Source: a virus
Lineage: Duplodnaviria; Caudoviricetes
Strand: one strand, 5' to 3'
DNA length: 35,486 bases
IMG/VR virus record: IMGVR_UViG_3300020043_002456
Location: 1-35,486 of that record
A program made the translations under genes and the position numbers. Within the stretch, counting starts at the first letter, position 1. The number at the start of each line of letters is the position of its first letter. The notes under the pieces were generated by a model that saw only the letters and a list, made by a program, of their open reading frames with translations, was not told where the DNA came from and searched no databases. Below, piece after piece: positions 11,752 through 27,126 of this stretch.

Positions 11752-12215
11752 TTAAAAATCTTATCTAATCGTTTAACAATCACTTTCTTTACTTGCTCAT
11801 TAAGGTTGTAACTATCCCCCATGAATTGGCGTTTGGGCATTTTAAACGTATGCCTGCCCCATGCCCTGCCCATCAAGCCATCATTATGTATTTTCGCATA
11901 GTCTAAATCTGTATGTATCTTAATACTCAACGCTGCTCTGTTTGCGGGGTCACGTATGATTGAACGCTTTAAATCACCCTCTTTAACTAATATTGCCCTT
12001 GTTGTATCATCAACCGTTTTACCGCTTTTCGTTTTATACGTTTTTTTCTTTCTCGGCTTCCACTTCTCAACACTCTTATCATCCCATCCCTGCTTGCGAA
12101 ATGATGACACAAAGAACACCTTGGCCGTGTTACCAACATCAACAATAGCCGCTTCCATTGCCTTGCGGGCTTTCTGCTCCGCTTGTTTTAGGTTGAATTT
12201 ATTGCTCTTTGCCAT
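11748..12215 (-). CDS. Virion morphogenesis / tail completion protein (Mu gpG-like)
   Basis: FRKQGW...KWKPRK, ILVKEGDLKRSI, YAKIHNDG, MPKRQFMGDS motifs; likely start MAKSNKF. Confidence 0.85.
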   Translation of the reverse strand: MAKSNKFNLKQAEQKARKAMEAAIVDVGNTAKVFFVSSFRKQGWDDKSVEKWKPRKKKTYKTKSGKTVDDTTRAILVKEGDLKRSIIRDPANRAALSIKIHTDLDYAKIHNDGLMGRAWGRHTFKMPKRQFMGDSYNLNEQVKKVIVKRLDKIFK

Positions 12216-14038
12216 TATGTCGGTATCGGTAAATTCCAATTCTTTTTAGCCGCTTCTTTGTCACCCTTTGCAATGTCAAAGTAGGGGTGTTTTCCCTTGC
12301 CCCTTTCTTTAAAAACATAGCCATCAATGCCCGCATTCATACGAAACAAGGGCGGTACATCATCGGGCGGTGTAAAGTTGCTCATATCGCTTAATTCCCC
12401 CTCGGATAGTTGTATTACGGTACAACGGCAGTTGCCACACCAATAAATCTTACCATCTCTCATTACAAGCAATGTATTGTGCTTTAAAACCTCAACACAA
12501 TATACCATGCCATAATAATCAATTTCATTTACATGATTTGATTGTATATTGTAATAATTTGAGTGTAAAATATTAATTCTATACATATCGTGATTTGCAG
12601 CGTAACTTCCGTTACGATGCTTAGTTACTTTCCCTTTTGTTGGCACTTTTCTTATTGTGCATGATTTATGTGATTTAATTATTACTTCAGTTAAATCATC
12701 ACACATTTTTTTGGAGCTTGTGTGAATGCAAATATTTTCTTTTCTCATGTAGCCGCTTTCCATAATCTTAGATGCAGTAATATTTCCATCTCCTTTTACA
12801 TACCTGTCCAAAAATAAATCTAAATAACATTTATCGAGTGCCTTTATTTCATTAGGTATAAATTTTTCATAAGATTTACCAAATTGGCTCAAATATAACC
12901 CCAATTCTTTTGAACTTATACCAATATAATCTTTTGCTAAATATGGCGTAAATGGAAAATCTTTTAAGTCATCCCATATTAATACTAAGTGTTTTTTTTC
13001 TGATTGTGATATTTTTATAGCATAAGCATTTTCACTTCTTTTGGTGGTACTTCCCTCTGATAAATACCACCCCATAAACTTTGCAAATTGTTCAGTTCTT
13101 ATGTTTTTGCCCGCTATTTTTATAAAGGCTTTACCGTTGCCCTTCCACTCAGTTGATTTATATACTTGGTCTGATATGGCAACACTTTCAGCATCAATCA
13201 ATTTTAATGTTTTTCTTTTTTTGTGCCTATCCCAACTTTTTCTTACCAACATCTTATGCCCTTCGGTAACAACACAACTAAAATTATTTGCTTTAAATTC
13301 TATCATTTTTCCATCATGAGGGTAAGCAATATAATTTATGGGCTGCTGCCATTCGGGTTGCAATGTTTCTGTATTCAAAGTATAAACTAAATCAGTTTGC
13401 TCCAATTCGTTAAATAACTTCCACCCGTTATTAGTGTAGATACTTGTTTTTTCATCGTAGCAACGCCAACCGTTAGGTGGATAGTATTGCTTCCAAAAGG
13501 GGTCATTGATAGGTCTTATAATGTTGTCAAGTGCTTGATGCGTTGGCCTTACTCTGCCATCACCAACGGTTTGATACTGCAACAACGGCAACACATCGGC
13601 ATCGGCTTCTATACGCTTCCAATCGGATGCCATACGTGCTGATGCTTTCGCAGTTTGGTATTCGGCTTGCAAGTAATCTTCATTGTATAGCTTAAACATC
13701 GGCTTAACTGCTTCTTTAAACTTATAAAAGTTCGATTTCAATTCGGGATCTGCTAACATCGCAGTCATTGTCCGTGTCTGTTGGTACGTTTTCGCTCCGC
13801 TGAATATGTAAATGTTATTGGTTAAGTCCGCAGTTAATACCTCATCAACAACAGGTGCTAAATCAATGCCATCACGTAAGTATTTCGCTGTTTTTAGATA
13901 AATCCCCTCTGGCAACACTTGATTATTAATCGCACCAATCCAAACATCATTCGCAAAACGATTAAAATCATTTTCATCAAACGGTGTTGGTGGGTCAACT
14001 TCCTTATCTATATTCAATATGTCGCAGTAACCGCACAT
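12215..14038 (-). CDS. Head morphogenesis protein (MuF / SPP1 gp7 family) containing an intein
   Basis: YQTVGDGRVRPTH...DPFWKQYYPPNGWR | CRCTV motif split by a 344 aa insert; spliced product 263 aa. Confidence 0.92.
   Translation of the reverse strand: MCGYCDILNIDKEVDPPTPFDENDFNRFANDVWIGAINNQVLPEGIYLKTAKYLRDGIDLAPVVDEVLTADLTNNIYIFSGAKTYQQTRTMTAMLADPELKSNFYKFKEAVKPMFKLYNEDYLQAEYQTAKASARMASDWKRIEADADVLPLLQYQTVGDGRVRPTHQALDNIIRPINDPFWKQYYPPNGWRCYDEKTSIYTNNGWKLFNELEQTDLVYTLNTETLQPEWQQPINYIAYPHDGKMIEFKANNFSCVVTEGHKMLVRKSWDRHKKRKTLKLIDAESVAISDQVYKSTEWKGNGKAFIKIAGKNIRTEQFAKFMGWYLSEGSTTKRSENAYAIKISQSEKKHLVLIWDDLKDFPFTPYLAKDYIGISSKELGLYLSQFGKSYEKFIPNEIKALDKCYLDLFLDRYVKGDGNITASKIMESGYMRKENICIHTSSKKMCDDLTEVIIKSHKSCTIRKVPTKGKVTKHRNGSYAANHDMYRINILHSNYYNIQSNHVNEIDYYGMVYCVEVLKHNTLLVMRDGKIYWCGNCRCTVIQLSEGELSDMSNFTPPDDVPPLFRMNAGIDGYVFKERGKGKHPYFDIAKGDKEAAKKNWNLPIPT
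12431..13462 (-). mobile_element. Intein with LAGLIDADG homing endonuclease
   Basis: C1 (CYDEKTSIYTNNGWK), block B VTEGH, endonuclease blocks FMGWYLSEGS and FLDRYVKGDG, block F VYCVEV, C-terminal WCGN followed by Cys+1; visibly more AT-rich than flanks. Confidence 0.92.
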
Positions 14039-15989: not shown

Positions 15990-17359
15990 CTAAAATCTTG
16001 ATGCTGATTTGTATTCTGCATCTCTACCAACAACAACAAGCGGTTTGATGATGCCTGTTTGGAAGCGTGTGTATTGCGATGGGAATACGGATGTGATTAA
16101 GTAGCGTGTTAAGTCAACAATGTGGCCAAATGGCTGGTAACTTACTTTTGTAACAGGGTCAGTAACGGTTTTCTTATCAACCTTACCATTCTTATCTTCT
16201 TTGGTATTCTCAAAGTCAAGTATTGCCACTCTGCAAGTTTCATCAACGGTAAACGATATGCCCTGCTCATTGTAGGCAAGTATCGCATTGAAGAAATCTG
16301 CACTTGGGCGCACATTCGGGTTTGACTTGGCCACGCGCCTTATAGGTTTCACTTCATCAAGTTCGTTAATCAGCAATCGGAATAAGTCGAATCCCTTTTC
16401 TTGCTTAACGTCATCCTTTTGTGATGTGCTATCTCCACACACATAAACATGCCCTGTATGCTTCCAATGTCTTAACCGTTGCATTATAGCCCTGCCCATT
16501 GCTTTGACCGTATTGTCTGGGTTCTTTAACGCAATGCAATCAATCATTCGTATTTCGTTTTCATCACTCACTTGGAATACACCACAAGGGAAGTATGGGT
16601 TAACGTTTTCATCAAAGGAAAGCCAAACGGCAAGTGAGGGGTCGTAGGTTACAATCCCGGTATGCTTAACAGTTGACCAACTTTTTAAAAACTCGCCACC
16701 GAAATCCACCTTGCCCCATTCGCCAAGGACATAAACTTTGTGCAAGTTCGGGTTGGCTTTTACGCGCTCGGTTAAGTGCTTAATATAATCAGCATCTAAG
16801 AAAGCATTATCCTTGTACGTGGTATGCAACACATAAGTATCATCATCGGGCGCATCAAAGAACCTGCGCTTTAACCAATGCTGTTCACTTATTGGGTTGA
16901 ATGTAATTATGAATTGTTTGTAGTTACTTGTTTCGCCTCGCACCCTTAACTCTAATTGATTAAAGTCCAATTCATCTAACTCGGTTGCTTCCTCACACCA
17001 AACCGAAGTAATACCTGCAATAGATTTGATTTTTTCGGCATCATCCATACCTGCACAAAGTATCTCGTTACCTGTTGGTGTATGAGTAAAGCGCATTTCG
17101 GACTTGTTGATAGTAAACTCTGAATAAATATCGTATTCAAGTAGCTTATCAATCAACAACTGATATATTGAATTACGTATCGTAGTGGCTACTTTACGGA
17201 TGCACAATATACGATGATTGCGCTCTGTTGTGGTTCGCAGTATTATCTTTTGAATAGCTGCGATTGATTTGCCAGAGCCAATCAGCCCGCCCCGCCTTTC
17301 AATACCAAGTATCTATGTTGGCTTAAAAGTGCGGGGCGATAGCAGTTATTTATTTTCAT
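15990..17359 (-). CDS. terL: Terminase large subunit, discontinuous (17359-17285 joined to 17276-15990; about 453 aa)
   Basis: MKINNCYRPALLSQHRYLVLKGGAG* in one frame, SGKSIAAIQKII... in the other; Walker B VWCEEATE, FNP coupling motif, C-terminal nuclease. Confidence 0.88.
17288..17338 (-). promoter_or_regulatory. mRNA hairpin ending at the putative take-off codon of terL
   Basis: CGCCCCGC/GCGGGGCG (8 bp), CUUUUAA/UUGAAAG (7 bp), GCCAA/UUGGU (5 bp), 9-nt loop. Confidence 0.7.
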
Positions 17360-17612
17360 TGTCTATAAATTCAACTTTCCAAAGGCGTAACTTCTCGCCT
17401 TGTGTTGTTAAATCAGCGTTAACCGATGTCGGTATTAACTTTGCAGCTAACTTGTAAAACTCGGTTGTGTTTTCCTTTGCCCATGTTGCAAGGTTCGCAT
17501 TCTTATCACCTTGCAATTCATTAAACGCAATCTCAAATGCTTCCTTTACTGATTTGGTCAGTTTGTTTTGCGCTCCTTTCGGTTTGCCGCTATTTCCTTT
17601 AGTAAAACCCAT
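17346..17612 (-). CDS. terS: Terminase small subunit
   Basis: MGFTKGNSGKPKGAQNKLT GxPKG-type motif; directly upstream of and overlapping terL start. Confidence 0.75.
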   Translation of the reverse strand: MGFTKGNSGKPKGAQNKLTKSVKEAFEIAFNELQGDKNANLATWAKENTTEFYKLAAKLIPTSVNADLTTQGEKLRLWKVEFIDNENK

Positions 17613-17667: not shown

Positions 17668-18015
17668 TTATTTTAGAATTGCAAATATCAGTGTTTGAAA
17701 CTCGGTAATCGAACGGATAATGTGATATTCAAACCCTTGATTGCAAATTAGCAACTCCCATTCACGTTGCCCTGCTGATTGCACACCATCTTCAGTTTTA
17801 AACTCAATCATGTACGCTTTTGATTGATAGTAAAGCACCATATCACTTCTACCTGCCACCAATCCCTTTGCTTTGTTTCTTGCGCCATCAATTCGGTTTT
17901 TGCTATTGTTGAGGTTATAGCACAGTAACCCACGTAAATTTGGGTAGGTGTTATGAAACCAAACGTAACAATCACTTTGTATTTTATCCTCCGATAACTT
18001 TTTTTCGTTTTTCAT
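17668..18015 (-). CDS. VRR-NUC family nuclease
   Basis: SEDKIQ, GLVAGRSDM, IEFKTEDGVQSAGQ PD-(D/E)xK motifs. Confidence 0.88.
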   Translation of the reverse strand: MKNEKKLSEDKIQSDCYVWFHNTYPNLRGLLCYNLNNSKNRIDGARNKAKGLVAGRSDMVLYYQSKAYMIEFKTEDGVQSAGQREWELLICNQGFEYHIIRSITEFQTLIFAILK

Positions 18016-26062: not shown

Positions 26063-26959
26063 CTACGAACCACACTCCGAAAAGACCTCACAGCTATCAC
26101 CACCGAGTAAGTCAATTTGATATGAATATTCATCAGCATCATTTTTTATTATTCCATTCCAATTCTTTGCTTCTTCAAGTATCTGTTTTGCACTTCTGTT
26201 GTTTCTAAAAAAAGTAATGTCTTTTGGTAGTTCCTTTCCTTCTTTTATCCATTTTTCAATTCTTTGTGGTGGGAAAAAGTTTCCATACTTTTCTTCCATC
26301 TTATCCATAAATTCAAAAAACTTCGGTGTTTCTTTCGCAATTTGGTATAGCTTCTTATCTGCTTTTTTCCAACAAGTCTTGCAGTTCCCTTGATAGCCTT
26401 TCAACTCTAATCTAAAAGGCATTGAACGCCAATAAAAATTAATCATCGGCTTTGAAGCAGGTATCATTTTTCTATTTATCAACGGATAAATAAACCCCAT
26501 TTGTTTAGCCTTTGCATTCATTCTATCTGCTTCATCAATCCTTATTCCTATTGCGGTGTGGTATTTTTCGCCATTAAACCAATCTTTACCAAACGCTGAA
26601 ATAGGAGCACCTTTTAATTCTCTTGTGCATTGTGGGTTGGCTTGGTTTGGTATTCCATACTTTGAAATCATTTGCTCAAATGGTTCTCCATTCCTACTTG
26701 CATTATCAAAGTCGGTTCTATAATACCTTGTGCCTTTTCTATATTCGTGTATTACATCGGCTTCAATCCATTGTATGTTTAGTTTGAAATGCTTATCACA
26801 TTGCTCTACAAATTCAAGAGTTTCCTCGTTTTCTTGTCCTGTGTTTGCAAATACAAATACTATGTTTTCATAGCCATATTCCTCATAGTGGTTATTAAGC
26901 CATTGAGCCATAAATGCTGATGTTTCGCCACCAGAAAACGATACTAATAAATTCTTCAT
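26063..26959 (-). CDS. PAPS reductase / adenine nucleotide alpha-hydrolase family protein
   Basis: VSFSGGETS PP-loop, FANTGQENEETL, CTRELK, GIRIDE, YPL, GNCKTCWKK. Confidence 0.85.
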   Translation of the reverse strand: MKNLLVSFSGGETSAFMAQWLNNHYEEYGYENIVFVFANTGQENEETLEFVEQCDKHFKLNIQWIEADVIHEYRKGTRYYRTDFDNASRNGEPFEQMISKYGIPNQANPQCTRELKGAPISAFGKDWFNGEKYHTAIGIRIDEADRMNAKAKQMGFIYPLINRKMIPASKPMINFYWRSMPFRLELKGYQGNCKTCWKKADKKLYQIAKETPKFFEFMDKMEEKYGNFFPPQRIEKWIKEGKELPKDITFFRNNRSAKQILEEAKNWNGIIKNDADEYSYQIDLLGGDSCEVFSECGS

Positions 26960-26994
26960 CCTAATTAAAATTTGAGTTAAGAAAGAAGCACCTC

Positions 26995-27126
26995 GCATAA
27001 CAGCACCTAACCAAAAGCAGGGGTTTACTGCTCCTAAGAAAGTTTTGTGCTATATTTAAGTTCTGTATTTCGTTCATAATTTTGTGGTTAAATTCCCTGC
27101 CTTCGGTTAGCTGCATCACGTTATAA
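26995..27126 (+). repeat. attC-like site 2
   Basis: TAAC-A-GCACCTAACCAAAAGCAGGG ... CCCTGCCTTCGGTTAGCTGC-ATCAC-GTTA. Confidence 0.85.

What the first reader, a model, noticed from the sequence alone, without database searches (positions are those of the whole stretch)
17265..17359. Candidate programmed ribosomal bypass inside the terminase Walker A motif
Seen (minus strand): AAA GGC GGG GCG GGC TGA TT GGC TCT GGC AAA TCA. Codon 25 GGC (17287-17285) is followed by a stop, 2 nt, and an identical GGC (17279-17277). Take-off and landing on the matched GGC gives LVLKGGAGSGKS, a canonical terminase P-loop, and a 453 aa protein; otherwise only a 25 aa peptide and a P-loop-less ORF exist. Established: matched codons plus an adjacent stop define T4 gene 60 bypassing; from memory a bypass has also been proposed in a Streptomyces phage terminase (verify). 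Inference: an 8-nt stop-hop limits TerL level or timing. Alternative: a -1 slip on the G-run giving GGGLIGSGKS.
Basis: partly seen in the sequence, partly recalled or inferred. Interest (0 to 1): 0.9.

Follow-up and report, generated by a model that had tools for sequence, protein, structure and literature searches.

The report
Hairpin-led ribosome hop in phage terminase
The only DNA-packaging motor gene found in this uncultured freshwater phage is cut inside its ATP-binding loop by eight extra bases containing a stop codon, which about half of its wild relatives share together with a predicted upstream RNA hairpin, so ribosomes likely hop over the gap, a way of reading a gene known from very few natural cases.

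Summary
Confirmed. The terL Walker A reads GGC TGA TT GGC, and skipping 8 nt gives the 453-aa wild-type enzyme. It is not an assembly error: 40 of 73 scored relatives carry the gap, always with an in-frame stop and no second lesion in ORF2.

New features: a long hairpin ending at or just before the first base of the take-off codon is predicted in 17 of 17 distinct gap alleles but 1 of 21 continuous ones. The gap is scattered at random over the terL tree. Two gap alleles have a NUMOD4-HNH gene directly upstream. A second terL subfamily has 5-, 6- and 8-nt stop-led gaps in 38 of 77 alleles, with unrelated hairpins ending at the same base.

The matched codon is not strict (GGC to GGA in 15 of 41); landing always allows at least two of three pairs. 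Best reading: a hairpin-assisted ribosomal stop-hop, likely spread as a homing-endonuclease cassette (0.72). A regulatory role is unsupported. There are no expression data. This scan noted similar Walker A gaps in other phages before; I found none in print.

The parts
17346..17612 (-). Likely terminase small subunit (88 aa); its 3' end overlaps the terL start by 14 nt. No HNH gene lies between it and terL in this genome.
   Evidence: weak PHROG 11043 hit of unknown function; identity inferred from position
17282..17359 (-). terL ORF1, 25 codons plus TGA; encodes the strand before the P-loop and its first half
17318..17339 (-). 5' arm of the predicted hairpin
17287..17308 (-). [quoted passage not shown]
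17285..17287 (-). Predicted take-off codon GGC (Gly25)
   Evidence: GGC or GGT in 41 of 41 gap contigs
17282..17284 (-). In-frame stop TGA next to the take-off codon
   Evidence: TGA 38, TAA 3 of 41
17277..17284 (-). 8-nt coding gap (stop, 2 nt, landing triplet); net 8 extra bases against continuous alleles
17277..17279 (-). Predicted landing triplet GGC (GGC 23, GGA 15, GGT 3 in relatives)
15990..17276 (-). terL ORF2 from the resume codon (428 codons): rest of the ATPase and the nuclease domain, PBSX-type

Best explanation
The terL gene is split by an 8-nt stop-containing gap and is likely decoded by programmed ribosomal bypassing: the ribosome would stall with peptidyl-tRNA-Gly on codon 25 and the stop in its A site, the predicted hairpin would refold behind it and push or hold it forward, and the tRNA would re-pair 8 nt on at GGN, giving the wild-type P-loop. 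Shown: the gap, the conserved stop, the allele-specific folding potential, intact ORF2, and the scattered distribution. Inferred: the hop, the hairpin's role, landing on two of three pairs, and the origin as an immunity insert of a NUMOD4-HNH homing cassette whose nuclease gene most carriers, this genome included, would have lost.
For: (1) Real and common: 40 of 73 scored loci carry the gap (80 fetched, 7 lacked enough flank). (2) The stop is always kept and changes only between TGA and TAA. (3) ORF2 has no second lesion in 40 of 40 gap alleles (37 of 429 aa, 2 run off the contig, 1 has an intein); median dN/dS among gap alleles is 0.02-0.05. (4) Hairpin: MFE -29 to -35 kcal/mol and z <= -4.5 in 17 of 17 distinct gap alleles, against mean -12 and z -0.8 in 21 continuous alleles, of which only L052 folds similarly. 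(5) An independent terL subfamily has stop-led gaps of 5, 6 or 8 nt in 38 of 77 scored alleles. 14 of 14 distinct ones have a hairpin (z <= -2.9), against 1 of 25 continuous below -2. (6) Same geometry for three unrelated hairpins: base 1 of the take-off codon is paired in 28 of 32 and 23 of 23 distinct sequences. The helix never extends to base 2. (7) The residue is always encoded before the stop, and the landing triplet keeps the take-off codon's middle base in 78 of 78 gap alleles. With standard or extended wobble (recalled rules) at least two of three pairs are always possible. In this family +2 and +5 offer 0-1 matches, +8 offers 2-3. (8) One mechanism covers in-frame 6-nt and out-of-frame 5- and 8-nt gaps. 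(9) The P-loop length is invariant in 101 of 102 full-length homologues; the other starts inside the motif. (10) Gap state needs 19 changes on the ORF2 tree (shuffled mean 19.7), and HNH_3+NUMOD4 genes sit directly upstream of gap alleles in both subfamilies. (11) Precedent: T4 gene 60, where pairing of exiting mRNA is proposed as the driver, and Hau3 terminase.
Against: No RNA, ribosome or protein data. Strict or wobble codon matching, found in all gene 60 homologues, fails in 15 of 41 contigs here and at base 1 in 37 of 38 alleles of the second subfamily. The conserved middle base could partly be ancestry, since the 3' flank is exchanged with continuous alleles. Covariation within the family is weak: one pair changes on both sides, in 3 related sequences; 13 of 500 shuffles reach the paired percentage. 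Low dN/dS may have been earned in continuous backgrounds, since the cassette is unlinked from the gene body. In most GGC-to-GGA alleles a perfect GGC lies at +14, which would delete two P-loop residues. The stem would end only 8 nt from the landing site, against 26 nt in T4, so the push geometry is not T4's. HNH linkage is thin: 7 of 71 gap alleles against 0 of 64 continuous (p 0.014), but 4 of 68 (p 0.12) without the 3 found through the HNH itself, and L368 has a related HNH beside a continuous terL.
Confidence: 0.72

Rival explanations
1. A -1 ribosomal slip at the stop (GGC to GGG), or one G added by RNA polymerase in the G run, gives a P-loop three residues longer.
For: The -1 frame is open and reads G-L-I-G-S-G-K-S or G-L-N-G-S-G-K-S, itself a GxxxxGKS motif. 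The -1 triplet GGG matches two of three bases in 36 of 40 gap alleles. This would leave the third base of the 'landing' codon free, as seen. A sub-threshold Rfam frameshift-element hit overlaps the site (18.8 bits against 53).
Against: In the 4 GCT alleles the -1 triplet is TGG (one match), and their slippery heptamers give W-G-W-L-I. The Leu codon follows automatically from GGY plus stop. None of the 120 listed homologues has a lengthened P-loop. The structure lies upstream, whereas -1 stimulators lie downstream (established knowledge). It cannot explain the in-frame 6-nt gaps or the Ser-type 5-nt gaps. The run has only 4 G.
Confidence: 0.09
2. The 8 nt are removed from the mRNA (micro-intron excision or polymerase skip) with the cut at the base of the hairpin, after base 1 or 2 of codon 25.
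For: The stem ends at base 1 of the take-off codon. Joining base 1 to bases 2-3 of the landing triplet gives the right residue in all 78 gap alleles and leaves bases 1 and 3 of that triplet free, as observed across both subfamilies.
Against: It does not need an in-frame stop, yet 78 of 78 have one next to a complete codon for the right residue. It needs only one of the two middle bases, yet both are invariant. No Rfam family reaches its threshold. I know no enzyme or ribozyme that removes 5-8 nt from bacterial mRNA.
Confidence: 0.07
3. The ribosome hops only 5 nt without re-pairing and decodes GGN as an extra Gly, giving a P-loop one residue longer.
For: Same frame as +8; explains the free third base; 5 nt is the commonest gap in the second subfamily (33 of 38).
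Against: The +5 triplet (ATT or AAT) lacks the middle-base match that all true 5-nt gaps have. P-loop length is invariant in homologues.
Confidence: 0.06
4. No full-length TerL is made from gap alleles: the phage relies on co-infecting intact relatives, or on re-initiation at CTG/ATT/TTG with the 25-aa peptide supplied separately.
For: Gap and continuous alleles occur in the same samples (loose ends at 17273-17274 in X1, X3, X5) and recombine freely. Gene callers list products starting L-I-G-S-G-K-S or M/L-N-G-S-G-K-S (P0015, P0018, P0019).
Against: No second lesion in 40 of 40 gap alleles; a conserved stop and hairpin; the same design arose with three unrelated hairpins; CTA in the TAA alleles is no start codon; a split through the P-loop is structurally implausible (inference).
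Confidence: 0.06

Closest known systems
Phage T4 gene 60 50-nt bypass with the MobA homing-endonuclease cassette and its homologues (bioRxiv 2022.08.31.505936; bioRxiv 2024.12.09.627546; PMC11194080)
   Same: Essential phage ATPase gene; Gly take-off codon followed by a stop; mRNA structure that can refold behind the ribosome; HNH nuclease gene upstream in some alleles and absent in others; horizontal spread.
   Different: Gap of 8 nt, not 50; no conserved hairpin in the gap or A site; the take-off codon closes the 3' arm of an upstream stem instead of lying in the 5' arm of a take-off stem; codon match relaxed beyond wobble; gene is terL, not topoisomerase; no sequence relation found.
UUA-triggered bypass in the terminase of Streptomyces phage Hau3 and two prophages (PMC10732093)
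   Same: Large terminase split by a short (7-10 nt) non-coding block at a conserved junction; bypass shown by mass spectrometry in E. coli for one site.
   Different: Trigger there is a rare sense codon with a proposed life-cycle role; here a true stop; no mobile nuclease reported in the parts read; different phage and host group; that paper's main text mentions 'Walker' only in a reference.
Synthetic 'stop-hop' of Weiss et al. as reviewed in PMC5009743
   Same: [quoted passage not shown]
   Different: Shown in constructs; the 2016 review says no natural in-frame stop-hop was known. Here natural, with a conserved hairpin; the 6-nt gaps of the second subfamily would be exactly such in-frame hops.

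Membership tests
T4 gene 60-type programmed bypass | [quoted passage not shown] | tested here: met
   41 of 41 contigs
T4 gene 60-type programmed bypass | Take-off and landing codons identical or read by one tRNA through wobble | tested here: not met
   Met in the window and in 26 of 41 contigs; GGC to GGA in 15 of 41
T4 gene 60-type programmed bypass | Take-off (A-site) stem-loop with the take-off codon in its 5' arm | tested here: not met
   Consensus fold gives only 3 pairs there; a weak local hairpin in the window is not conserved
T4 gene 60-type programmed bypass | 5' stem-loop able to refold behind the ribosome | tested here: met
   Predicted only; 17 of 17 gap alleles against 1 of 21 continuous; position differs from T4
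T4 gene 60-type programmed bypass | Mini Shine-Dalgarno 6 nt before the landing codon | tested here: inconclusive
   GGG at that spacing in 36 of 40 alleles, TGG in 4; it is part of the stem and the codons
T4 gene 60-type programmed bypass | Nascent-peptide signal | not testable with these tools
   ORF1 has only 25 codons and its first residues vary
T4 gene 60-type programmed bypass | Linked homing endonuclease | tested here: inconclusive
   Absent in the window; present in 2 of 36 gap alleles and 0 of 31 continuous alleles of this family with 600 nt or more upstream
T4 gene 60-type programmed bypass | Single polypeptide from unspliced mRNA | not testable with these tools
   Needs RNA and protein data
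Hau3-type terminase bypass | Rare UUA sense codon as trigger | tested here: not met
   Trigger position holds TGA or TAA
PBSX-family terminase large subunit | Terminase_3 domain with GGxGSGKS Walker A | tested here: met
   PF04466 164.9 bits against cut-off 23.2; continuous relatives up to 99% identical in ORF2

The most novel reading that the evidence does not exclude
The 5-8-nt gaps are not hopped by ribosomes but cut out of the mRNA at the foot of the upstream hairpin, which would make them the shortest introns known in bacteria or phages, removed by an unknown route. The fixed stem end and the free first and third landing bases fit this and no RNA data exclude it.
Probability: 0.07. Interest if true: 0.95.

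Novelty: new variant of a known kind. Interest (0 to 1): 0.77.

Why it matters
Natural translational bypassing rests on T4 gene 60 and its homologues, the Hau3 terminase candidates and yeast mitochondrial byps. If right, about half of the alleles sampled in two common freshwater terL subfamilies use a compact version (one hairpin, one stop, 5-8 nt) that arose with at least three unrelated hairpins. The elements fit in about 70 nt and come as a natural allelic series. They would allow a direct test of the open question of whether mRNA refolding behind the ribosome drives forward sliding, and how little codon pairing landing needs. They also mean that gene callers truncate these terminases (14 of 120 listed homologues lack the N-terminus, 3 of them starting exactly in the gap).

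Tried and rejected
Assembly error: rejected.

Other gap lengths in the window's own family: none found. The variable-gap viral scan gave 38 hits, 37 at 8 nt and 1 chance match in another gene (L161). The metagenome scan covered 40 of 64 parts and gave 117 hits, of which 7 were this terL, all 8 nt; 110 had no hit to six terL queries. L121 was a chance match.

More distant relatives: my Walker B filter failed on many of the 71 loci it was given, so they were not scored; among those scored no new break appeared.

Precise DNA-level excision: 0 of 33 continuous alleles carry the gap alleles' GGG-GCG/GCT codons. L052 keeps the 5' arm but has continuous-type codons, so it looks recombinant.

Expression: no RNA holder listed; X19 did not cover the site and X21 gave no reads; no evidence either way.

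Host: not settled. Most of the 18 genome hits are Bacteroidota at 27-42% identity; an 87% hit lies on a 2.8-kb contig of a Planctomycetales MAG and may be mis-binned. The recalled Bacteroidota promoter motif occurs before terS but is not enriched (59 against 50.7 +/- 7). No cultured phage exceeds 60% identity.

Rfam: nothing at threshold. No terminal repeat at the contig ends. only returned the loci.

Literature: six searches found no report of stop-led Walker A gaps in terL. The library lacks most subscription papers; supplements were not read, and those of PMC10732093 hold the Hau3 gap sequences and folds. PMC8300805 was irrelevant. The hairpin coordinates in notebook entry 1 were wrong; those given here are correct.

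Full report
Observation. The window is an AT-rich phage contig with portal, capsid, protease, tail sheath, tape measure and helicase genes. On the minus strand a 25-codon ORF (17359-17282) ends ...AAA GGC GGG GCG GGC TGA, and 2 nt later a 429-codon frame starts GGC TCT GGC AAA TCA. The second frame is a PBSX-type terminase large subunit, the only one in the contig. Removing 8 nt gives the family's P-loop and 453 aa.

It is real. The exact 22-mer occurs in 20 IMG/VR contigs. A degenerate pattern gave 42 hits, 41 of them this gene. Of 80 related loci 73 could be scored: 40 have the 8-nt gap and 33 are continuous. Contigs from four other public runs bridge the site without a gap, and continuous alleles join the window sequence right at the landing codon. 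Gap alleles differ by up to 21% in ORF2 protein, none has a second lesion, and dN/dS is 0.02-0.05 as in continuous alleles. That last point is weakened by free recombination between cassette and gene body.

What is conserved. The take-off codon is GGC or GGT, the next codon is always a stop (TGA 38, TAA 3), the spacer is TT or AT, and the landing triplet is GGC 23, GGA 15, GGT 3. The strict codon match seen in the window is therefore not a rule.

All 17 distinct gap alleles fold this way (-29 to -35 kcal/mol); 20 of 21 distinct continuous alleles do not. The 21 pairs are kept in 95.5% of cells, against 36-57% when slid, but only one pair shows a two-sided change, in three related sequences. 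The case rests on the allele contrast more than on covariation. [quoted passage not shown]

Mobility. On a tree of 59 distinct ORF2 sequences the gap needs 19 changes, no fewer than shuffled labels (19.7). The same cassette follows at least five different terL N-termini. Two gap alleles (L032, L038) have a 168-aa NUMOD4 + HNH_3 gene between terS and terL; the window has none.

An independent test. Searching with that nuclease led to 47%-identical homologues directly upstream of a different terL subfamily, also broken in Walker A. Of 80 loci of that subfamily 77 were scored and 38 are broken: Ser-stop-2 nt (22), Ser-stop-3 nt in frame (4), Gly-stop-2 nt (11) and Gly-stop-2 nt-Gly (1). They use two hairpins unrelated to the window's. 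All 14 distinct broken alleles fold strongly, against 1 of 25 continuous, and in 23 of 23 longer sequences pairing includes base 1 and not base 2 of the codon before the stop. [quoted passage not shown] The HNH is found upstream of 7 of 71 gap alleles and 0 of 64 continuous ones over both families (p 0.014), or 4 of 68 (p 0.12) without the three found through the HNH. L368 has an HNH beside an unbroken terL.

Mechanism. Translation-level features (a complete codon for the right residue, then an in-frame stop, then a partly matching triplet 5-8 nt on) and one shared hairpin register point to peptidyl-tRNA take-off and re-pairing. In the window's family the in-frame options are -1 (GGG or TGG), +2 and +5 (0-1 matches), +8 (2-3 matches) and +14; only +8 restores the P-loop, whose length is invariant in 101 of 102 full-length homologues (the other 18 of the 120 listed were read and none has a longer loop). 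I infer that the stem zips up as mRNA leaves the stalled ribosome, sequesters the take-off codon and keeps the P site at least 5 nt beyond the stem end. That spacing resembles a Shine-Dalgarno helix (recalled). The insert likely arose as protection against the HNH, as described for T4 mobA. The -1 slip, RNA-level removal, a +5 hop and helper dependence remain possible and are weighed under rivals.

Comparison with print. PMC10732093 (abstract, sections 3.4, 3.6, first part of the Discussion, passages) confirms the Hau3 terminase precedent: 7-10-nt gaps after a rare UUA codon, with mass spectrometry in E. coli. bioRxiv 2024.12.09.627546 (abstract, first part of the Introduction, one Discussion section) proposes pairing of exiting mRNA as the driver in gene 60 and names only gene 60, that terminase and Magnusiomyces byps as cases. 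bioRxiv 2022.08.31.505936 (12 of 20 passages) finds gene 60 homologues always with identical or wobble-compatible codons and has no mention of terminase. PMC5009743 (7 passages; first 300,000 characters held) describes synthetic stop-hops. PMC11194080 (7 passages) supports refolding behind the ribosome. Smith et al. 2013 and Bonocora et al. 2011 were seen only as citations. Six searches found no report of these gaps. The element works like gene 60 but fails two of its defining features, so it is filed as a new variant, not a member.

Earlier scan notes. Word searches returned nine findings of stop-led Walker A gaps of 3-51 nt in other phage genomes, some linked to homing nucleases or an RNA helix. 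Sequence and place look-ups found no look-alike of this locus. These are unchecked AI notes; they agree with my reading and are not counted as evidence.

Verdict. A real, conserved, mobile 8-nt coding gap with a predicted hairpin of fixed register; likely programmed bypassing (0.72); untested at RNA and protein level; new variant of a known kind; interest 0.77.

Noticed in passing
L441-L520 (e.g. L364:2610-2640, L462, L463, L471, L481): A second freshwater terL subfamily has 5-, 6- and 8-nt stop-led gaps at two different P-loop codons in 38 of 77 alleles, each behind a hairpin ending at the take-off codon; 5 have an HNH gene upstream, 3 of them found through the HNH search.
   Followed up: yes
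L032:918-1424 and L038:918-1424: NUMOD4-HNH gene inserted at the terL start; terL would then begin at a TTG inside the nuclease's last codons. A Bacteroidota-type promoter motif (recalled) precedes the nuclease in L032.
   Followed up: partly
L089, L090, L095, L290 (after ORF2 codon 398): An intein-like insertion of 324 aa near the terL C-terminus, in both gap and continuous alleles; P0024 and P0047 carry intein Pfam PF14890.
   Followed up: partly
L052 versus L057: Nearly identical ORF2 and upstream DNA, but L052 keeps the hairpin's 5' arm with a continuous P-loop: a likely recent recombinant.
   Followed up: partly
L423:300-620: A terL near an HNH homologue appears interrupted just before G-G-G-K-S by structured, non-coding sequence that looks like a group I intron end.
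   Followed up: no
window 12215-14038: 607-aa protein with a Phage_Mu_F head-morphogenesis domain followed by a region with weak PHROG hits labelled thymidylate synthase and ribonucleotide reductase, possibly an inserted intein or nuclease.
   Followed up: no
window 26063-26998: Phosphoadenosine phosphosulfate reductase-like gene (PHROG 424, E 2e-44).
   Followed up: no
window 17668-18015 and the same slot in relatives: The gene upstream of terS is a VRR-NUC-like nuclease that is swapped among several unrelated versions across relatives.
   Followed up: no
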